Shown piece by piece: positions 46,606 through 55,418 of a DNA stretch of 64,000 nucleotides. Position 1 is the stretch's first letter; the number at the start of each line of letters is the position of its first letter. Source of the DNA: Planctomycetota bacterium (GTDB lineage: Bacteria; Planctomycetota; UBA1135; UBA2386); assembly GCA_965223545.1 (NCBI GenBank), contig OZ245006.1:1440001-1504000 (forward strand), written 5' to 3'. A program made the translations under genes and the position numbers. Under the pieces are notes generated by a model. It saw only the letters and a program-made list of their open reading frames with translations, did no database searches and was not told the origin of the DNA.

Positions 46606-48207
46606 ATGGTGCGAAACTCCGTCCTGCTCGCATTCTCCCTGGCTGCCGCGCCCGCAGCCCAACCGCCCGGCCAACCCAATGTCGTGCTGCTGATGGCCGA
46701 CGATTTGGGCTGGGGCGACGTGCGGTTCAACCGCGCTGCGGCTCGGGCGCGAACTCCCCATCTCGAAGCAATTGCGCGCGACAGCATCGTGTTCGACCGC
46801 TTCTACGCGCAAAGCCCGGTGTGCAGCCCGACGCGGGCGAGCGTTCTCACCGGGCGGCATCCGGCGCGGATGGCGATCCACGGCGCCAACGTCGGGCATC
46901 TGCCACGGTCGGAGACGACGCTGGCCGAGCTGCTGCGCGCGCAGGGGTACCGCACCGGACACTTCGGCAAGTGGCACCTCGGCACGCTCACCCGCGATGT
47001 GGCCGACAGCAACCGCGGCGGGCCGCGCGGTGCGGAGCACTACTCGCCGCCGGCGCAGCACGGCTTCGATGTGTGCTTCTCGACCGAAGCCAAGGTGCCG
47101 ACCTTCGACCCACTGCGGCGCCCCGCGTCGTGGCGAAATCGGCCGGAAGGCAGGTACGCCCATCGCCAGTTCGGATGGGACAGTTTGACCGAAGACGAGC
47201 CGTGGACAGCGTACGGCACCCGCTACTGGAATGCGGCGGGTGAAGAGGAACAGGCGCAGCTCCGCGGCGATGACAGCGCACTGCTCGCCGCGCGCGCCGT
47301 CACCTTCATCGAAGACTGCGTCGCCCGCCGGCAGCCGTTCCTCGCGGTCGTGTGGTTCCATGCCCCGCACTTGCCGGTCGTCGCCAGCGATGCGGACCGA
47401 GGCCTCTACGCCGACGCGGGCTCGTACCGGGCGAGCTACTTCGGCTGCATCACGGCCATGGACCGCGCCGTCGGCCACATCGATCGCGCCCTGCACCGGC
47501 TCGGAATCACCGACGACACGATCTTGGCGTTCACTTCCGACAACGGTCCCGAAGGAGACGACAACGCACCGGGCTCCGCCGGTCCGTTTCGTGGGCGCAA
47601 GCGCAGTCTGCTGGAAGGCGGAGTGCGCGTGCCGGGCTTGCTGCGTTGGCCGGCGCGATGGCCGCAGGGGCGGCGGTTGCGCAGGCTCGCGGCGTGCACA
47701 GTCGACACAATGCCGACGATCGCGGCCGCGGTGGGAGTGCCGATCCCGGCTTCACTGCGCGGCACGCTCGACGGCATCGACCTCCTACCGTTGATCGACG
47801 CGGACCGCCGCAGACCACGCGGCCTCGGGTTCGTGACGCACCGCCAGACGGCGTGGCACGCGGGCGCGTTCAAGCTGCTGAGCGAGCGGACGGACACCGA
47901 TTGGCTCTGGCAACTGTTCGACCTCGACGCGGATCCGGGCGAGACGCGCGATTTGAGAACGGCGATGCCCGAGCGCACCGCGGTGATGCGAGCCGCGCTG
48001 GCGCGGTGGCAGGCGGGATTGGTGACGGGGGAAGGGGGCGGGAGTGATGAAACGGAGCCTGGCTCCGTACGTTCACACCTCGGTGAGCGGCGCGGTGCGG
48101 ATCCGGGAGGGGTCGATCACGGCGGCGACGGCGGTCGAGACCGAGCCGATCGAGAACAGGAGGCCGCGGCGCGGGCGCGAGGGGTGGGCTGCCAGGGCGG
48201 CGTGTAG
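46606..48207 (+). CDS. Secreted formylglycine-dependent sulfatase
   Basis: PNVVLLMADDLG, CSPTR, GKWHLG, SDNG, EGGVRVP, DPGE; the last ~55 aa look like read-through. Confidence 0.9.
   Translation: MVRNSVLLAFSLAAAPAAQPPGQPNVVLLMADDLGWGDVRFNRAAARARTPHLEAIARDSIVFDRFYAQSPVCSPTRASVLTGRHPARMAIHGANVGHLPRSETTLAELLRAQGYRTGHFGKWHLGTLTRDVADSNRGGPRGAEHYSPPAQHGFDVCFSTEAKVPTFDPLRRPASWRNRPEGRYAHRQFGWDSLTEDEPWTAYGTRYWNAAGEEEQAQLRGDDSALLAARAVTFIEDCVARRQPFLAVVWFHAPHLPVVASDADRGLYADAGSYRASYFGCITAMDRAVGHIDRALHRLGITDDTILAFTSDNGPEGDDNAPGSAGPFRGRKRSLLEGGVRVPGLLRWPARWPQGRRLRRLAACTVDTMPTIAAAVGVPIPASLRGTLDGIDLLPLIDADRRRPRGLGFVTHRQTAWHAGAFKLLSERTDTDWLWQLFDLDADPGETRDLRTAMPERTAVMRAALARWQAGLVTGEGGGSDETEPGSVRSHLGERRGADPGGVDHGGDGGRDRADREQEAAARARGVGCQGGV
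48044..48074 (-). repeat. 31-bp repeat, left inverted copy (REP-like)
   Basis: GTGATGAAACGGAGCCTGGCTCCGTACGTTC; 30/31 identical to the reverse complement of 53366-53396; internal 8-1-8 palindrome. Confidence 0.9.
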
Positions 48208-49149
48208 GTTGAGCGGCCCCATCGCCGGGCCGCAGTTGGCGAACTCGGAATAGGTCGAGGCGACGGATTCGCGGGGTACGTCGAGGACCTGGGCGAACAT
48301 GTCGGCGAACCAGGCCATCGGTGTGTTGGGGACGTAGATGCCGACCTGGTCGCGGTTGAGGCCGGCGGCGCGCAGGGCGGCGCCGCAGGCGGTCTCGATC
48401 GCTTCGGGGGTGAACTCGCGCAGAATGCGGCTGGCCTCCTTGCCGGCGCGGATGTGCCGGCGCGGGACCCCGTCGGCGGACTGGTCCACGTCGACGCGGA
48501 AGGCGCCGCACGAGTGCGCGGTCGACACCGCGTGGAAGCCCATCAGCCCCGGAGAGTCCGCGGGTCCGACGACGTAGGCGCCGGCGCCGTCGCCGAGAAA
48601 CCAGCTGATCGAGTCGCTCCAGTCGGCAACGCGGCTGTAGACGCAGCACACCACGACCAGGATCCGTCGCGCTTGACCCGCGTGGATCATCGAGCCCGCG
48701 AGCTGTAGGCCGGCCATCGCGCCGCTGCACGCGCTCTCGAGATTCCACGCCGGCACGCGCCAGCAGAGGGCCTTCATCAAGAACGCCGCGTCGCCGACGG
48801 CGGGCTCCATTGAAGGAAAGCCGGCCACCAACACCAAGTCGATGTCGTCGACGCCGATCTCGGCGGCGGCGAGCGCGTCGCGGGCCGCCGCCATCTCGAG
48901 GTCGATCGCGGTGTGCTCGTCGGCCAAGATGCGCCGCACTCGAGTACCGCGGAACGGGTCCTCCAGGTAGGGGCGCATCGTGCTGTCGAACGAAGCGGAT
49001 CCCTCTGCCGCAGCCGTGTCGTTCATGACGCGGGCCAGGGTCTGGCGTTCGACGCGCTGCAAGACGTCGGGGAACCGCTCGGCGAACCAGGAGTTGTCTC
49101 GCACGGTTCTGGGCACGGCCACCGCCACCGACTCGATTCTCGCGTTCAT
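48073..49149 (-). CDS. KAS III-like condensing enzyme (CybF/furanolide synthase-like)
   Basis: YLEDPFRGT, WNLESACS (catalytic Cys), FLGDGAGA, PNTPMAW in place of HQAN, ANCGP, SIGSVS. Confidence 0.8.
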   Translation of the reverse strand: MNARIESVAVAVPRTVRDNSWFAERFPDVLQRVERQTLARVMNDTAAAEGSASFDSTMRPYLEDPFRGTRVRRILADEHTAIDLEMAAARDALAAAEIGVDDIDLVLVAGFPSMEPAVGDAAFLMKALCWRVPAWNLESACSGAMAGLQLAGSMIHAGQARRILVVVCCVYSRVADWSDSISWFLGDGAGAYVVGPADSPGLMGFHAVSTAHSCGAFRVDVDQSADGVPRRHIRAGKEASRILREFTPEAIETACGAALRAAGLNRDQVGIYVPNTPMAWFADMFAQVLDVPRESVASTYSEFANCGPAMGPLNLHAALAAHPSRPRRGLLFSIGSVSTAVAAVIDPSRIRTAPLTEV

Positions 49150-50897
49150 GACTGGCTCCGCAGGGCAGGGTCAGCGCGGTCTTGCGACCGGCTGTCGCTA
49201 CTGAATTGGCGCAGCGCGGCGATGCGCTGCGAGCCGTCGAGACGCACGTCGGGATCGGTGCGCACATCGAGCACGACCGGACCACCGCCGAGTCGCAAGC
49301 CCTGGCGCAGCGCGTCCTCGTCGCGGACGACCCGCGCTCGCACGCCGAACCCAGCGGCCACAGCGGTGAAGTCGACCGGTGCGAGACTGCAGTCGACGGC
49401 GATGCCGTACTGGTCGCGCAACCCGTGCTTGCACATGTTGAAGGCGGCGTCGTTGATGATGACGAAGGTCACCGGCACTTGCAGGCGGGCGGCGGACTGC
49501 AGCTCCAGGCCGGCCATCAGGAAGCCACCGTCGCCGCAGATCGCGAACACGCGGCGCTGCGGCGCGCCGAGCGCGTGGCCGATCGCGGACACGACTCCCG
49601 ACCCCATGGCGGCGAAGCCGAGGCTGGTGAAGAAGGAACCCGGCGTCGCCGGTCGGAGGTAGTGCAGCGCCATCGCCAGGTGCTCGCCGATGTCGGCGGT
49701 GAACACCGCGTCGGGCGGGCATTCGGCGTTCATCGCCTCGATCACCTGGGGCGTGGTGAGCAGGCCCGCGCGCGAGCCGCCGAGCTGTTGGCGGCGAGGC
49801 GCGACGGGTGCGCGACGGGGCAGTGGCCGGGCCAAGCGCGCGCCGATGCAACGGAGGGCGGCGCTCGCCTCGCCGACAATGCCGAGATCCACCTCGTAGT
49901 TGCGGCCGAATGCCTGCGGATCGAGGTCGATCTGGACGAACGCGGTGGAAGGCCGCAGCGCATCGCTCCACGCGTTGGTCGCCAGGTCATCCAGGCTCGA
50001 GCCGACCACCAGCACCACGTCGACGCCGCTTCGCAGGTAGTCGATGACGCTGTCGTGGCCACCGAAACCGAGCACGCCGAGGAACAGCGGGCTGTCCTCG
50101 GCAAACCCGCCCTTGCCCTTGGGCGTGACCGCGACGGGGCACTGCGCGCGCTCGGCCAGTGCCGCCGCGGCATCGCGCACCGCAGCGTCGCGGCCAGCGG
50201 CGCCGAGCAACAGGAATGGGCGCTGCGCGGTGGCGAGCAAGTCGGCGACGCGGCCACACGCCGCGGCGTCGGGCGCCGGCGCGGCCGGGACGGGGTCGGC
50301 ACGCAGGACGGGAGCGGCCAGCTCGACGTTGCCGACGTCGATCGGCAGGGACAAGAACGCCGGTCCACGGCGCCCGTTGTGCATCGAAGACCACTCCGAC
50401 AGCAGCGTGCCCACCGCCGCCGCCGGCCGAACGAGCCGCGCGGCGAAGCGCGTCACGGGCCGCGCCAGCGCCACCGCGTCACAGCCGTGTGGCGACCCCT
50501 CCTGCAGCGCGCCGCGGCCGAACGCCGTCGTCGCCACTTCACCGGCGATGACCAGCACCGGGATCCCGTCGGCGTGTGCGCTCGCGATGCCGGTGAGCGC
50601 GTTGGTCAAGCCCGGTCCCGACGTCACCAGCACCAAGGCCGGCCGACCCGTGGCGAGCGCGTGGCCCATCGCCAGATAGACCGCGTGGCTCTCCTGCACG
50701 ACGTGGTGCACCCGAATGGCCGACTGCTGCGCGAGCTCGGCGTAGAGCCGCGAGATGGTGCCCCCCGGAATGCCGAACACCGTGTCCACTCCGAGCCGCG
50801 TCAAGGTGTCGACCAACTGGCGCGACACCGACGGGATCGGCGCGACCTCGAGGTCTGGTGGCGAGAGGCGGGGGCGCTCTTTGCGGGTCAGCAACAT
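49146..50897 (-). CDS. TPP-dependent acyloin-forming enzyme (ScyA/CybE-like, acetolactate synthase family)
   Basis: FGIPGG, TSGPGLTN, ALQEGS, DIGEH, GDGGF...ND; ATGA overlap with the KAS III gene. Confidence 0.85.
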   Translation of the reverse strand: MLLTRKERPRLSPPDLEVAPIPSVSRQLVDTLTRLGVDTVFGIPGGTISRLYAELAQQSAIRVHHVVQESHAVYLAMGHALATGRPALVLVTSGPGLTNALTGIASAHADGIPVLVIAGEVATTAFGRGALQEGSPHGCDAVALARPVTRFAARLVRPAAAVGTLLSEWSSMHNGRRGPAFLSLPIDVGNVELAAPVLRADPVPAAPAPDAAACGRVADLLATAQRPFLLLGAAGRDAAVRDAAAALAERAQCPVAVTPKGKGGFAEDSPLFLGVLGFGGHDSVIDYLRSGVDVVLVVGSSLDDLATNAWSDALRPSTAFVQIDLDPQAFGRNYEVDLGIVGEASAALRCIGARLARPLPRRAPVAPRRQQLGGSRAGLLTTPQVIEAMNAECPPDAVFTADIGEHLAMALHYLRPATPGSFFTSLGFAAMGSGVVSAIGHALGAPQRRVFAICGDGGFLMAGLELQSAARLQVPVTFVIINDAAFNMCKHGLRDQYGIAVDCSLAPVDFTAVAAGFGVRARVVRDEDALRQGLRLGGGPVVLDVRTDPDVRLDGSQRIAALRQFSSDSRSQDRADPALRSQS

Positions 50898-51034
50898 CGG
50901 ACAACTCCGTTTCGTTGCTGGTCCACCCGGCGCCGGGCCGGAGCGTCACGGGGTTTCTTCGATTCTGCGCGACAGGGCGGGGCGGCGAGGGCGGTGCGGC
51001 GGGCGCAGCGGGGAAACCGAGGGCGAATCCATAC

Positions 51035-52096
51035 CTACACGAGGTCGGAGTCGCCGAGGTGGTAGCGCCAGTGGTCGTGGAGCTGAGTCCGTGAGGTGTG
51101 GTGGTGCCCCTGGCGGGTGATCCGGTGGGTCAGGTAGCGCGGGCGCCCTTCGAAGTCGGGAGACGGCGCGTAGCCCGCGCGGGCGAAGCACGCCATCAAG
51201 CGCCCGTCGTTGGGGGCACAGATCGCCAGCGCACCGCGGCGGCCGGCGGCGGCGGCGCGCTGCTCGACGTGCGCGAGCAGGGCCGCACCCGCGTCGACGT
51301 CGCAGTGCTCGGCGAGCCAGAGCTCGGCGATCGCCGCGGCACCGGGCGCGATGAGGTCGTGGCGACAGCGCCAAACGCAGTAGCCGGTGAGCCGATCGTC
51401 CAGGAGCACGCTGGCAAACGCGTAGACGCCCTCGGGGTGCTGGGCATAGCGCCATCGCAGCCACTCCGCGTCGCGGACCACGCCGACGGTTCTCGGCGCG
51501 CGGCTCGCGGCGTCCAGCTGATCGGGGCCGGGCAGACGATCGACGACCACGGCTCGTGGATGCCGGACGGCTGGGCGCAGCGGAGTGGCGAAGTCTCGCA
51601 CCAGGAACTCCACCGGCCGGAGCGCGTCGTAGCCCAGGTAGCGCGCGCCGGCGCGTTGCGCGTGCGACGGCGGGAAACCGTACAGCAGGAGGTCGCCGTT
51701 GCGTTCGCCCCAGAGCCGCGTCGCCGTCTCGCCCAGCACCGCAAACACGCCCGGGCGGCGCTCACGACCCGTGCGCCAACCCGGCACGACGAACGTCTGG
51801 ATGACGTGCACGGCGGTGCGCACCGCACCATTGCCGGTGCGAAAACGGACCGGAAAGCCGCCGAAGTGGCCGACGACCCGTCCTCCATCGACCGCGACCA
51901 GTGCCCGGCGGCCGCACGGGTTCTGGCAATACAGCCATTGCCACATCGGCCGCGAGGCGCTCGCTCTGCAGGCGCAAACCTCCGCGGCCGCGACGGCGGC
52001 CGCATCCCGATCGCCGACAGCTCGAATCTCGAGCCGCTCCACGCGCGAGTCCAAACCCCACGGCATCTCTCGGGCGACGCTTGCCGTTTCGATCAT
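51035..52096 (-). CDS. GNAT-family acyltransferase (tandem GNAT fold)
   Basis: WQWLYCQNP, VVGHF, LLYGFP, RDAEWLRWRY, GDSD. Confidence 0.75.
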   Translation of the reverse strand: MIETASVAREMPWGLDSRVERLEIRAVGDRDAAAVAAAEVCACRASASRPMWQWLYCQNPCGRRALVAVDGGRVVGHFGGFPVRFRTGNGAVRTAVHVIQTFVVPGWRTGRERRPGVFAVLGETATRLWGERNGDLLLYGFPPSHAQRAGARYLGYDALRPVEFLVRDFATPLRPAVRHPRAVVVDRLPGPDQLDAASRAPRTVGVVRDAEWLRWRYAQHPEGVYAFASVLLDDRLTGYCVWRCRHDLIAPGAAAIAELWLAEHCDVDAGAALLAHVEQRAAAAGRRGALAICAPNDGRLMACFARAGYAPSPDFEGRPRYLTHRITRQGHHHTSRTQLHDHWRYHLGDSDLV

Positions 52097-52298: not shown

Positions 52299-53363
52299 GT
52301 GCATCGATACATCTTGGTGGCCTCCTGCCTGACGTCGACGCTGGCGACGCAGACCACCTCGCCGGCGGCGGTCCCAACTGTCGAGGGCAACCACGCAGTG
52401 GAGCTGTTTCCGTTCGGCATCGACCGTCGCTTCCAGCAGCTGGACGCGACGCATGCCGGCAATCCGATGCTGATCAAGTCGATCGCGCTCCGGCGCGACG
52501 GCATTGGTCCACACGCCGCGCCCGCCCGGCTCGTCGACGTCGAGATCAGTCTCGGCGAGTGCAACCTGACCCTGCCATCCTCGCGCTACGACTACAACTA
52601 CCTCAGCAGCGGGCGCGTCGTCGCGTTCTCGCGCAAGACTGTGCAGCTGCCCGACTGGTCGCAGGCGGCCGGCTCCCCCGCCGCCTTTGATGCCCGCTTC
52701 GTCCTCGACCAACCCTTCAGCTACAGCGGCGGCGGCGGCTTGGTGATCGACGTGACGGCCACCAACTGCCGGACCGCACCCGGTGGCGTGTCTGGTGTCG
52801 GCGGCATGCTGACCGACGCGTTCTCGACGTTGCCATCGGTGGCACCGGCCACCTACACGGGCGTCGGCTGCACGATCGCTGGCCGCAGTGCGCCCTTCCT
52901 ACTGGCGATGCGCATGGAGAACCACGGCAGCAACTTCCCCAGCCACTCGATGCGCATGCGCAACGAGGTGTGGAACGGCCCGGCGAACGCACCGATCCTG
53001 ATCCACTTCGACGTGCAGGACCCAGCGCTGCCGGTGCCATGGCTGTGCTCGACCGTACGTGCCCTCCCCCTCCACCGAGCGCTCCTCGCCAACACCGACA
53101 GCACCGGCCACATGCCGCAGATCGTCATCAACTGCCCGTACCTGCCCACCCTCATCGGCGTCCGCCTCTTCGTCCAAGCGGCGACGGTGGACCCGGGCCA
53201 AGCACCCCTCGCCCCCGTCGTCCTCTCCAACGGTGCGGCCGCGACCATGCCAGCGTCGAGCAACCCGACCGGCCACGACATCGTGTTCCACACGGGACCC
53301 GCCGCGCAACCCGACGCCGAACTCCAGTTCGCCACCGGCCTCGCCATCGAACTCGGCCGCTAA
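52299..53363 (+). CDS. Secreted hypothetical protein with the shared C-terminal beta domain
   Basis: GAAGGAG SD, GTG start, signal peptide; resembles 35724-36839 in layout; PTLIG...VQA...VLSNG. Confidence 0.78.
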   Translation: MHRYILVASCLTSTLATQTTSPAAVPTVEGNHAVELFPFGIDRRFQQLDATHAGNPMLIKSIALRRDGIGPHAAPARLVDVEISLGECNLTLPSSRYDYNYLSSGRVVAFSRKTVQLPDWSQAAGSPAAFDARFVLDQPFSYSGGGGLVIDVTATNCRTAPGGVSGVGGMLTDAFSTLPSVAPATYTGVGCTIAGRSAPFLLAMRMENHGSNFPSHSMRMRNEVWNGPANAPILIHFDVQDPALPVPWLCSTVRALPLHRALLANTDSTGHMPQIVINCPYLPTLIGVRLFVQAATVDPGQAPLAPVVLSNGAAATMPASSNPTGHDIVFHTGPAAQPDAELQFATGLAIELGR

Positions 53364-53365
53364 CC

Positions 53366-53396
53366 GAACGTACGGAGCCAGGCTCCGATTCATCAC
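53366..53396 (+). repeat. 31-bp repeat, right inverted copy (REP-like)
   Basis: GAACGTACGGAGCCAGGCTCCGATTCATCAC, 2 nt after a TAA stop. Confidence 0.9.
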
Positions 53397-53415: not shown

Positions 53416-54780
53416 TCAACGATAGTGCATCTGCACCGTCAGACCCCGCGTCCCGACCAAGCCGAGGGGACCGAGCGGGTCCTGCACGAAGAACTGCGCG
53501 TACAGATTGCGGCCGTGATGGCGCGCCTCATTGGGGACGAAGAACGCGCGCGACGCGAACCCGGTCGCATCAGTGAAGATCGGGATGATGGCGACCGGCT
53601 TGGTGACCGGTTCGACGAGGAGATGCACGCCGGAGAGGTTGAGGTTGACCTGGCCGTGGCCGAGCAAGAACAGGCCTCCCGCGAGCGGCGGCGCGTCGTG
53701 GACCCGGAATCGCACATTCGGCGCGGTGATGTATGCCGAACCGAACACGTCGATGCGCGGCGCGCGTCCACCACTGCCGAATGTCGCCGGTCCGTAATCA
53801 TGATCGACGGCATCCGGATGCAGGACGGTCATGCTGCCCGCACTGTCCAAAGCCAGCAGCATCCCCGAGGGCAGGTCGGGATCGATCGTCTCGAACGCCG
53901 TGCCAGAGGGGTTGAACCACCCATCCTGAATCGGCGCCCCGGGCACCGCCCAGTCGTGGCACTGATAGTCGCCCGCAGCCGTGATCACGTGGAGGAGGCC
54001 GTCCTCGATCCTGCCGGCGCGCGGCCGCGCCGACAGCGAGAAGCCCGCGACCACGGCGGGAGCCGTCGGGCTGTTCAGATCGAAGCCAGTCACCCCACTC
54101 CGCGTGGACACCGCCAGGTAGCGCGGCCGGTACGTCATGCCCAGAACTTCCGCCCCCGGCAACGCCGCGGTCGCCAACACCGCCGGAAGGCTGCGCGGGG
54201 TCAAGTCGACGACCGAGATGCCGGAGCTGCGGCCACTGAGGCACGCCAGCTGCTCTTGGGCAACGACCCGTTCGAACGCGCCGGCGACAAACCCCCGAAC
54301 GCTCGGATAGCGTGGGTCGGCGGACAGGTCCAACACGACCATCCCGGGCGCGTCCGCAACGACCAGCAACAACTCCGCCTCGCGCGCCACGACAACATCG
54401 GAGCAACCGCTCGCCATCGGCAGTGGCACCGAGCCCACTTCGACCGGCGCCGTCGCGACCGAGCAGTCGAAGACGCGCAACGCCCCGGAGTCCTGCTGGA
54501 CGGCATACAGCCACGATCGAAACATCGAGAGCCGCACGGGCGCGGTGCTCCAACCCGTCGCCGGCACACTGCGCACCGGCACGGCCCCGCCGACGTCGAA
54601 CACCCGCAGCTCACCGGCGACCGCGGCGTATGCGTACTCTGCGTTGGCCCCGGCGTAGCCGACCACGTCGTGCGCCTGCGCAGCCGGCACCGCGGCCAGC
54701 TGCGCCACGGAGGTCACGTTGTGCTGTGGCTGCGCCGCAGCCGTGGCAGCCATCAACAGAGCAACCAGATGTCGAACCAT
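53416..54780 (-). CDS. Secreted LVIVD-repeat beta-propeller protein with the shared C-terminal domain
   Basis: Signal peptide; repeats LRVFD, MVVLDLS, ISVVDLT; VPN...YAQFFVQDP...TRGL. Confidence 0.78.
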   Translation of the reverse strand: MVRHLVALLMAATAAAQPQHNVTSVAQLAAVPAAQAHDVVGYAGANAEYAYAAVAGELRVFDVGGAVPVRSVPATGWSTAPVRLSMFRSWLYAVQQDSGALRVFDCSVATAPVEVGSVPLPMASGCSDVVVAREAELLLVVADAPGMVVLDLSADPRYPSVRGFVAGAFERVVAQEQLACLSGRSSGISVVDLTPRSLPAVLATAALPGAEVLGMTYRPRYLAVSTRSGVTGFDLNSPTAPAVVAGFSLSARPRAGRIEDGLLHVITAAGDYQCHDWAVPGAPIQDGWFNPSGTAFETIDPDLPSGMLLALDSAGSMTVLHPDAVDHDYGPATFGSGGRAPRIDVFGSAYITAPNVRFRVHDAPPLAGGLFLLGHGQVNLNLSGVHLLVEPVTKPVAIIPIFTDATGFASRAFFVPNEARHHGRNLYAQFFVQDPLGPLGLVGTRGLTVQMHYR

Positions 54781-54789
54781 CGCACTCTC

Positions 54790-55305
54790 CTACGGCGGTG
54801 AGAAATCACAAATCAGCACGACGCGTGGCAACCCACTCGTGTTGCCCGCCTCGTGCGGGATGCGGCCATCGAAAGTGAAGGCCTTGCCCACCTCCCACGT
54901 CCGCGTTTGGCCGTGCATGCGAAACAAGCACCCCGGCGGCACGATCAGCCCCAGGTGGCAGCGGAAGCGGCCAACTTCGTCTTCGTCCGCGTGTGGGTAG
55001 ACGTGCGTGCCCGGCCCGAGCCACGAAAACCCGGCATCGGCCAGGTACGGCAAGCCGCGGATCGCGGCCCAGGTGCGCGGACACCGGCGTCGGTTGGCGG
55101 CGACATCGATGCCTTCCATCCCCGCCTGCGAGTGCTTGCCCAACAACAAGCCGAATACGCGCCAATCACCGGCGAACGCCTCGGCGACCGGCCACGGCAC
55201 GAAGTCCGAGCGCAACAGCGCGCTCGCCTCCTCGATGATTGCCGGCGCGTGCCGCTCGAGACGAGCGAGCACTTCGTCGACGGCAAAAGCGTGGGACACG
55301 GACAT
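54790..55305 (-). CDS. Aspartyl/asparaginyl beta-hydroxylase-like 2OG-Fe(II) enzyme
   Basis: CPRT, FSWLGPGTHVYPHAD, CHLGL, WEVGK, HEAGN, RVVLICD. Confidence 0.88.
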   Translation of the reverse strand: MSVSHAFAVDEVLARLERHAPAIIEEASALLRSDFVPWPVAEAFAGDWRVFGLLLGKHSQAGMEGIDVAANRRRCPRTWAAIRGLPYLADAGFSWLGPGTHVYPHADEDEVGRFRCHLGLIVPPGCLFRMHGQTRTWEVGKAFTFDGRIPHEAGNTSGLPRVVLICDFSPP

Positions 55306-55418
55306 TTGGTAGGCGGGACTCCCCAAACCATTGCGGGCGGTCGCCCGGATCGAGCGCCATCTTACCCCGCACTCGTGGCTGAGACGCCCCCCCAGTGTGC
55401 CGTCCTGGCCCGTGGCGG

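What the first reader, a model, noticed from the sequence alone, without database searches (positions are those of the whole stretch)
48073..52096. Minimal furanolide-type biosynthetic core (CybE/CybF-like) with a GNAT in place of the usual ligase and lyase
Seen: coupled TPP enzyme and KAS III-like genes, the latter with DPFRG, WNLESxC and NTPxAW motifs, which I recall from the cyanobacterial/myxobacterial furanolide synthase family rather than FabH. Known: in cyanobacterin biosynthesis a TPP enzyme (CybE) makes an acyloin from two 2-oxo acids and CybF condenses it with an acyl-CoA supplied by an ammonia lyase and CoA ligase. Those supply genes are absent here and a GNAT lies upstream. Inference: a new butenolide/furanolide-like metabolite or signal from a planctomycete, using a different acyl donor.
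Basis: partly seen in the sequence, partly recalled or inferred. Interest (0 to 1): 0.78.

Follow-up and report, generated by a model that had tools for sequence, protein, structure and literature searches.

The report
Partner-swapped lactone synthase gene pair
A probable planctomycete carries two coupled enzyme genes that join a relative of the furanolide-ring synthase to a carbon-coupling enzyme from a different myxobacterial family, and the pair likely builds a small lactone from building blocks other than those of known furanolides, while the neighbouring acetyltransferase gene is probably a bystander.

Summary
The three genes and the quoted motifs are real. The KAS III-like protein belongs to the CybF (furanolide synthase) clade, not FabH.

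Lacking a lyase and ligase is the norm: 60 of 73 homologous loci have a TPP gene and neither, and the two-gene form is published for Plesiocystis. The GNAT belongs to a family found in 82 of 90 related genomes and is absent from all 119 CybF-type loci checked.

The real twist is the TPP enzyme. It is not a CybE orthologue: about 30% identity, NF035927 score 264 against a cut-off of 1000, and an AU test rejects the grouping (p=0.0035). It comes from a myxobacterial clade that usually sits in a DUF2378–TPP–other KAS–sensor kinase operon. The same swapped pair recurs in two myxobacterial genomes, with an NmrA-like third gene. Neither gene was found in the related genomes searched.

The genome's only aromatic ammonia-lyase is HutH, so a non-cinnamoyl acyl donor is likely. 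The product is untested. An earlier scan note (e1-5892549) described the sister kinase-linked module on other DNA. Verdict: new variant of a known kind.

The parts
48073..49149 (-). CybF-clade KAS III-like condensing enzyme (P0001, 358 aa); Cys141-Asn275-Asn305 where FabH has Cys-His-Asn
   Evidence: Pfam ACP_syn_III; below all FabH cut-offs; careful tree 100/100 inside the CybF clade; alignments; thiolase/KAS III fold model, pLDDT 72
49146..50897 (-). ThDP (TPP)-dependent carboligase of a myxobacterial non-CybE clade (P0002, 583 aa); Glu70, GDG motif at 455, Gly492 at the position of BbmA G484
   Evidence: Three Pfam TPP domains; 50-55% to myxobacterial proteins against about 30% to CybE-type; trees and AU test; closest solved structure BbmA 8x3x, 342 bits
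51035..52096 (-). Divergent paralogue of a native Acetyltransf_9-type GNAT family (P0003, 353 aa); probably not part of the module
   Evidence: Weak PF00583; Atlas look-alikes carry PF13527; six paralogues in the genome by tblastn; family in 82/90 related genomes; absent from homologous loci
50898..51034 (-). 137-bp gap between GNAT and TPP genes, with GGAG before the TPP start and no terminator-like site
   Evidence: Sequence; scan; one contig of run X4 bridges it without differences (same study as the best holders, so not independent)
48044..48074 (.). 31-bp REP-like palindromic repeat overlapping the KAS stop codon; marks the 3' end, not a cassette border
   Evidence: 97% inverted match to 53366-53396, but 88 matches genome-wide at up to 6 mismatches

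Best explanation
The functional unit is the coupled TPP and KAS gene pair, which joins a CybF-clade condensing enzyme to a TPP enzyme of a different myxobacterial clade, and it likely makes a small butenolide or furanolide-like lactone, with the GNAT probably uninvolved. Inferred steps: (1) the TPP enzyme couples two 2-oxo acids into an alpha-hydroxy-beta-keto acid; (2) the KAS, through Cys141, O-acylates this with a 2-enoyl-CoA and closes the ring as CybF does; (3) the enoyl-CoA comes in trans from the general acyl-CoA pool, probably a non-cinnamoyl one such as crotonyl or a fatty 2-enoyl-CoA, because the genome has no PAL/TAL. The pair was likely gained long ago from a myxobacterial-type donor, without the NmrA-like third gene seen in the two myxobacterial copies.
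For: KAS inside the CybF clade with the published P. pacifica homologue (L011) and with four-gene lyase-ligase-TPP-KAS loci (L197, L198, L016): 100/100. Joining it to the KAS that normally partners this TPP clade is rejected (p-AU 2e-61). TPP outside the CybE clade; grouping rejected (p-AU 0.0035); NF035927 264 bits versus 1019 for L197, cut-off 1000. Closest solved relatives are BbmA (342 bits) and CsmA (253), ahead of acetolactate synthases (197 or less); PMC12395478 (passage) calls these CybE homologues that make alpha-hydroxy-beta-keto acids. Gly492 aligns with BbmA G484, where the genome's own IlvB-type protein has Trp. The same pairing occurs in L158 (G619) and L199 (G950), with matching subclades in both trees. 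One aromatic lyase in the genome, HutH beside HutU; no HGD-D dehydratase found; 24 AMP-binding genes over the cut-off elsewhere. Ordinary codon use and intact frames.
Against: No product, expression or activity data. The characterised Tolypothrix CybE and CybF sequences were not on hand, so proxies were used. All characterised CybF substrates I read of are aryl-acryloyl thioesters (PMC12395478, parts 1-2 and passages); aliphatic enoyl donors are untested there. Both proteins sit on long end branches (0.94 and 0.84-0.9), so function may have drifted. G950 does have a second, non-HutH-type lyase, so loss of PAL does not track this pairing fully (2 of 3 genomes have only HutH-type). G000 is 91% complete, so a PAL could be missing from the assembly. 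The TPP trees are quick trees without bootstrap.
Confidence: 0.5

Rival explanations
1. The pair makes an open-chain acyloin derivative rather than a lactone: the KAS would C-acylate or O-acylate the alpha-hydroxy-beta-keto acid with a saturated or 3-hydroxy acyl-CoA, as CqsB1/NzsJ do in carbazole pathways, and stop there.
For: TPP plus KAS III-like pairs with this chemistry are described (PMC7466098, passages). No PAL/TAL in the genome. The TPP partner differs from CybE. Residues after the catalytic Cys differ in this subclade (C-S-G versus C-[ST]-S in most others).
Against: The KAS is nested in the CybF clade with the clade's motifs. No carbazole cyclase or ACP gene was recognised beside it. 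CqsB1/NzsJ sequences were not compared directly.
Confidence: 0.2
2. One reading: the GNAT is a recruited third enzyme. It could acylate the product or an intermediate, or shuttle the acyl group, although it cannot activate an acid as a ligase does.
For: Same strand, 137-bp gap, no terminator-like site between. It is a fast-diverged paralogue (branch 1.54) with no close relative found, as expected of a recruited copy. Two other GNAT loci of this genome lie beside ketosynthase and AMP-binding genes (L167, L169). It occupies a locus that lacks the NmrA-like third gene of the myxobacterial copies.
Against: 0 of 119 CybF-type loci and 0 of 13 TPP-clade loci, including both with the same pairing, hold this GNAT family. 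The family is in 82 of 90 genomes of the host family that lack the pair, and 26 of 29 top hits lie next to a nucleoside phosphorylase. The TPP gene has its own ribosome-binding site.
Confidence: 0.13
3. It is a functionally ordinary aryl furanolide synthase that uses scavenged cinnamates, or urocanate from HutH, activated by one of the cell's CoA ligases.
For: P. pacifica makes cinnamoyl-derived deoxyenhygrolides with only a cybE/cybF pair co-located, though the gene link is proposed, not shown (PMC8777810, parts 2-3). One ligase of this genome is 41% identical to a CybC-like protein. Gly492 leaves room for a bulky acceptor.
Against: Different TPP clade. HutH sits beside urocanate hydratase, which would consume urocanate. 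P. pacifica has a second, non-HutH lyase-family gene that this genome lacks.
Confidence: 0.12
4. The genes are inactive remnants or serve primary metabolism (IlvB-like and FabH-like).
For: Long end branches; best NCBIfam score of the TPP protein is to acetolactate synthase, though at half the cut-off (274 versus 538).
Against: Frames and catalytic residues are intact; codon use is at the genome median; the genome has separate IlvB-type and FabH-type genes that group elsewhere; the pair was not found in the relatives searched.
Confidence: 0.05

Closest known systems
CybE/CybF furanolide core synthases (cyanobacterin; mac and ncl clusters) - PMC12395478, PMC13288894, PMC9324945
   Same: Adjacent TPP gene then KAS III-like gene; KAS in the same clade (35-37% to four-gene loci L197 and L016) with shared motifs and catalytic Cys.
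   Different: TPP enzyme from another clade (28-30% to CybE-type); no lyase or ligase in the cluster and no PAL/TAL found in the genome; host is a probable planctomycete.
Stand-alone cybE/cybF pair of Plesiocystis pacifica and Enhygromyxa salina (deoxyenhygrolides) - PMC8777810
   Same: Two-gene layout without a cybA-J operon; KAS 40-42% identical to the P. pacifica protein (L011 = ABCS01000004.1).
   Different: Their TPP enzyme is CybE-type (44% to CybE, supplement Table S7); this one is 30% to it. The gene-to-compound link there is itself only proposed.
BbmA and CsmA alpha-hydroxy-beta-keto acid synthases (PDB 8x3x, 8xod, 8x3z)
   Same: Closest solved structures to the TPP protein (342 and 253 bits); shared Gly at BbmA position 484.
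   Different: Distant homologues, not orthologues by any test run here. The Nat Chem 2025 paper was seen only as a citation and one passage in PMC12395478.
Myxobacterial DUF2378-TPP-KAS III-hybrid sensor kinase operon (uncharacterised)
   Same: Source clade of the TPP enzyme (49-53% identity); 9 of 12 loci examined have DUF2378, TPP and kinase, 8 of them with a KAS.
   Different: Its KAS is a separate clade (28-33% to P0001; union rejected). No DUF2378 or kinase gene flanks the pair here.
NzsH/NzsJ and CqsB3/CqsB1 of carbazole biosynthesis - PMC7466098
   Same: ThDP acyloin condensation followed by a KAS III-like step on the alpha-hydroxy-beta-keto acid.
   Different: Needs an ACP or 3-hydroxyacyl donor and a cyclase, none recognised here; sequences not compared directly.

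Membership tests
CybF furanolide synthase clade | Groups with CybF-type proteins rather than FabH or other KAS III-like clades | tested here: met
   100/100 in careful tree with L011 (published homologue) and four-gene loci; CybF itself not on hand
CybF furanolide synthase clade | Catalytic Cys retained; clade motifs NTPxAW and WFLGDG in place of FabH PHQAN | tested here: met
   Cys141, Asn275, Asn305; motif counts. Motifs were defined from my alignment, not from a paper
CybF furanolide synthase clade | O-acylation, Morita-Baylis-Hillman ring closure and hydride shift on an enoyl thioester | not testable with these tools
   Needs enzyme assay; reaction described in PMC12395478 and PMC13288894
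CybE / ScyA-related TPP enzymes | Orthology to CybE-type proteins; NF035927 at or above 1000 bits | tested here: not met
   264 bits versus 1019 for L197; about 30% identity; p-AU 0.0035
Secondary-metabolic alpha-hydroxy-beta-keto acid synthases (works-like) | ThDP motifs intact and Gly in place of the AHAS Trp at the BbmA G484 position | tested here: met
   GDG motif at 455 and Gly492. That this position governs acceptor size is recalled knowledge plus the 8xod mutant name
Canonical four-gene furanolide cluster (CybBCEF) | Ammonia lyase and CoA ligase in the cluster | tested here: not met
   None at the locus; only 7 of 73 homologous loci have both within up to 8 kb
Canonical furanolide pathway | PAL or TAL available somewhere in the genome | tested here: not met
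   One PF00221 hit, HutH-type SH motif beside HutU; genome 91% complete
Primary IlvB / FabH | Above NCBIfam cut-offs and grouping with housekeeping copies | tested here: not met
   TIGR00118 274 vs 538; TIGR00747 107 vs 292; separate housekeeping copies group elsewhere
Three-gene module including the GNAT | GNAT conserved beside the pair in other genomes | tested here: not met
   0/119 and 0/13 loci
Three-gene module including the GNAT | Co-transcription of GNAT, TPP and KAS | not testable with these tools
   No RNA holder listed

The most novel reading that the evidence does not exclude
A furanolide synthase has swapped partners, taking a TPP enzyme from a myxobacterial kinase-linked signalling operon, and now performs natural Morita-Baylis-Hillman ring closure on aliphatic or imidazole (urocanoyl) enoyl-CoAs. 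That would give the first non-aryl furanolide-type lactone, used as a diffusible signal by myxobacteria and a planctomycete.
Probability: 0.25. Interest if true: 0.72.

Novelty: new variant of a known kind. Interest (0 to 1): 0.45.

Why it matters
The CybF substrates described in the papers I read are all aryl-acryloyl thioesters paired with CybE-type acyloins. A CybF relative that has kept a different TPP partner across two myxobacterial orders and a probable planctomycete, in a genome with no PAL/TAL found, is a ready two-gene test of how far this ring-closing chemistry extends. It could give a new lactone scaffold or a broader biocatalyst. The survey also shows that most CybF homologues sit in two-gene modules, so genome mining that requires all four core genes misses most of the family. 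It is still an extension of a known pathway type, with no product shown.

Tried and rejected
Cassette hypothesis: the 31-bp inverted repeat around the locus is a genome-wide REP-like element with 88 matches; rejected.

Recent transfer: codon adaptation of KAS and TPP is at the 52nd and 44th percentile of 3098 genes, so there is no compositional sign.

Phage copies: none confirmed in viral contigs with P0002 or alignment A2; these scans find close relatives only.

Context of the closest metagenomic KAS relatives (P0004-P0011): the metagenome scan returned none above 44% identity, so their pairing rests only on shared contig lengths with top TPP hits (394389, 4636, 3623), a hint only.

Expression: no RNA holder listed. 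Runs X5-X7 gave only short pieces.

Promoter scan found no sigma-70-like site (uninformative for this GC-rich genome). Fold search returned only FabH/PqsD-type structures and no CybF structure. The careful TPP tree did not finish, so quick trees were used. The full-library profile search for the GNAT could not be run, so distant relatives on the closest contigs remain unchecked; one search excludes only close ones.

Literature: nine searches found no description of this pairing, of the kinase-linked operon, or of a planctomycete furanolide cluster. PMC12766979 has no furanolide, butenolide or thiamine mention (term search). The original cyanobacterin paper, the BbmA/CsmA paper and two ChemRxiv preprints were not readable and could hold homologue surveys. 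The alignment figures in the PMC8777810 supplement are pictures and gave no text.
Full report
OBSERVATION. The stretch holds three intact minus-strand ORFs: a GNAT-like gene at 52096-51035 (P0003, 353 aa), a TPP enzyme at 50897-49146 (P0002, 583 aa) and a KAS III-like gene at 49149-48073 (P0001, 358 aa). The TPP stop and KAS start overlap as ATGA. The GNAT lies 137 bp upstream, and the TPP gene has its own GGAG. The quoted motifs are present: DPFRG, WNLESAC with Cys141, and NTPMAW. Neighbours are a converging sulfatase and a diverging secreted protein whose Atlas look-alikes are mostly Planctomycetota. With a TIGR02999 sigma factor nearby, this fits a planctomycete, but I had no direct taxonomic label. 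A 31-bp inverted repeat around the locus has 88 genome-wide matches and is a REP-like element, not a cassette end.

THE KAS IS CybF-CLADE. Its named homologues come from myxobacteria, cyanobacteria and a few actinomycetes at 34-47% identity; FabH-type hits reach about 33% over part of the length. Locus L011 is contig ABCS01000004.1 of Plesiocystis pacifica, the cybE/cybF pair named in the supplement of PMC8777810 (part 2 of 3 read). I did not have CybE or CybF themselves, so L011 and loci with lyase, ligase, TPP and KAS together (L197, L198, L016) served as anchors. In a careful 47-row tree P0001 lies inside that clade at 100/100, in a 9-row subclade with P0004-P0011 members, L158 and L199 at 100/99. 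It has Cys141, Asn275 and Asn305 where FabH has Cys-His-Asn. NTPxAW occurs in 91 of 113 clade members, 0 of 13 other KAS-like rows and 0 of 15 FabH-type rows; WNLESxC is in only 19 of 113. The model has the KAS III fold (pLDDT 72), and no CybF structure appeared among the listed matches.

THE TPP ENZYME IS NOT CybE. P0002 is 28-30% identical to CybE-type proteins, which are 41-56% identical to each other, and 50-55% identical to another myxobacterial group. It scores 264 bits on NF035927 (cut-off 1000), while the four-gene locus L197 scores 1019. Trees of 138, 53 and 32 rows all place it outside the CybE clade and away from the genome's IlvB-type protein (quick trees, SH-aLRT only). Forcing its subclade into the CybE clade is rejected (p-AU 0.0035). 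Its closest solved structures are BbmA (342 bits) and CsmA (253), ahead of acetolactate synthases. PMC12395478 (passage) calls these CybE homologues making alpha-hydroxy-beta-keto acids. Gly492 aligns with BbmA G484, changed to Phe in 8xod; the genome's IlvB-type protein has Trp there. So it likely does CybE-like chemistry without being a CybE orthologue.

A PARTNER SWAP. Close relatives of P0002 were found in 13 of 351 genomes of one myxobacterial order and 1 of 73 of another. I examined flanks for 12 of the 13. Nine have DUF2378, TPP and a hybrid histidine kinase, eight of these with a KAS of a separate clade. One (L158, G619), and the single hit of the second order (L199, G950), instead pair the TPP with a CybF-clade KAS, 45-47% identical to P0001, followed by an NmrA-like gene. 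Both trees put these two next to the window's proteins. Joining the KAS subclade to the kinase-operon KAS is rejected (p-AU 2e-61). Across 140 CybF-clade loci, some duplicated between collections, 116 have a CybE-type TPP, 2 this type, 4 another type and 18 none in the fetched DNA. The pair is therefore a rare, conserved chimera. Shared contig lengths suggest more copies among the closest metagenomic proteins, but I could not fetch those contigs.

THE MINIMAL LAYOUT IS ORDINARY. Of 73 GTDB loci, 68 have a TPP gene, 7 have both lyase and ligase, and 60 have TPP with neither within up to 8 kb. Among the 47 with at least 5 kb on both sides the figures are 45, 3 and 41 (one lyase and one ligase query, tblastn 1e-6). 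Three Nostoc genomes carry two copies, one beside a lyase and one without. PMC8777810 (parts 2-3 read) already reports a stand-alone cybE/cybF pair in P. pacifica, without genetic proof of its role.

THE GNAT. It resembles Acetyltransf_9 proteins and has six paralogues in this genome. The family is in 82 of 90 genomes of the host family, and 26 of the 29 best-matching loci lie next to a nucleoside phosphorylase. None of eight family members used as queries hit 119 CybF-type loci or 13 TPP-clade loci, including L158 and L199. GNATs transfer acyl groups from acyl-CoA and do not activate acids (established knowledge), so it cannot replace a ligase or lyase. Against my reading: it is on the same strand with no terminator-like site in the gap, it is unusually diverged (branch 1.54) with no close relative found, and two other GNAT loci here lie beside ketosynthase and AMP-binding genes. 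A late recruitment is possible but unsupported.

ACYL DONOR AND ORIGIN. The genome (91% complete) has one aromatic lyase, with the HutH-type SH motif, beside urocanate hydratase. No HGD-D dehydratase was found, and 24 AMP-binding genes pass the cut-off elsewhere. G619 also has only a HutH-type lyase; G950 has a second type. The KAS was not found in 40 relatives or 300 genomes of the class (overlapping sets), nor the TPP in 300 of the phylum (four candidates scored per genome). Both nest among myxobacterial sequences, and codon use is typical of the host. An old lateral gain is the simplest reading; direction was not tested with a rooted analysis.

MECHANISM. Shown: gene layout, clade membership, intact catalytic residues, recurrence of the pairing. 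Inferred from CybE/CybF chemistry (PMC12395478 parts 1-2, PMC13288894 part 1): the TPP enzyme couples two 2-oxo acids, and the KAS O-acylates the product with a 2-enoyl-CoA and closes a butenolide ring. Inferred more weakly: the donor is a non-cinnamoyl enoyl-CoA from general metabolism, and the product is a signal. The signal idea rests on the kinase-linked sister operon and on nostoclides acting as cell-density mediators (PMC9324945, part 1 and passages). Rivals are an open-chain acyloin product as with CqsB1/NzsJ (PMC7466098, passages), a three-enzyme pathway with the GNAT, an ordinary aryl furanolide from scavenged acids, and inactivity.

NOVELTY. Nine library searches found no account of this pairing or of a planctomycete case, but the primary cyanobacterin and BbmA/CsmA papers were not readable. 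An earlier scan note (e1-5892549) describes a phage-borne pair whose cellular counterparts sit beside a sensor kinase in Polyangia. That agrees with the sister operon I had already found; I could not find the phage copy.

VERDICT. The stated novelty (GNAT in place of ligase and lyase) is not supported. A different, moderate one is: a partner-swapped CybF module in a host with no PAL/TAL found. New variant of a known kind; interest 0.45.

Noticed in passing
window 48044-48074 and 53366-53396: 31-bp REP-like palindrome (core CGGAGCCAGGCTCCG) with 88 matches genome-wide, many just after stop codons and some as inverted doublets.
   Followed up: partly
L156, L157, L159, L160, L162-L166: Conserved myxobacterial operon DUF2378 - TPP enzyme - (KAS III-like) - hybrid histidine kinase, often with a PilZ gene nearby; looks like a signal synthase plus sensor; not found in search.
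   Followed up: partly
L064:3576-6244, L069:1960-8000: Actinomycete CybF-clade proteins pair with a third TPP clade in reversed gene order; the catalytic Cys is Ala-Gln-Asn in L064 (NFESAQN), and L069 has lyase-like and ligase genes downstream.
   Followed up: no
L073, L037 versus L197, L198: Lichen Nostoc genomes carry a second, minimal CybE/CybF-type pair followed by a GDSL lipase, apart from the lyase-linked cluster.
   Followed up: partly
L140, L141, L142 (G042): Three further TPP plus KAS III-like pairs of other clades in one myxobacterial genome, besides its CybE/CybF-type pair.
   Followed up: no
L001, L007, L012, L014, L091: A Nannocystaceae subclade of CybF-like genes with no TPP gene detected in the fetched flanks.
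   Followed up: no
L203-L231: The conserved GNAT of this host family follows a NupC transporter and a nucleoside phosphorylase in 25 and 26 of 29 loci; function unknown.
   Followed up: partly
L167 (G000:C1:8027736-8031461) and L169 (G000:C1:569582-574315): GNAT paralogues beside FabH-like plus CoA ligase, and beside FabB-like plus AMP-binding genes; the L167 ligase is the genome's best match to a CybC-like protein (41%).
   Followed up: no
window 52299-53363: Secreted 354-aa protein of no Pfam family with Planctomycetota look-alikes, divergent from the GNAT.
   Followed up: partly
window 53416-55326: Asp/Arg beta-hydroxylase-family gene followed by a secreted 454-aa protein with no Pfam match.
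   Followed up: no
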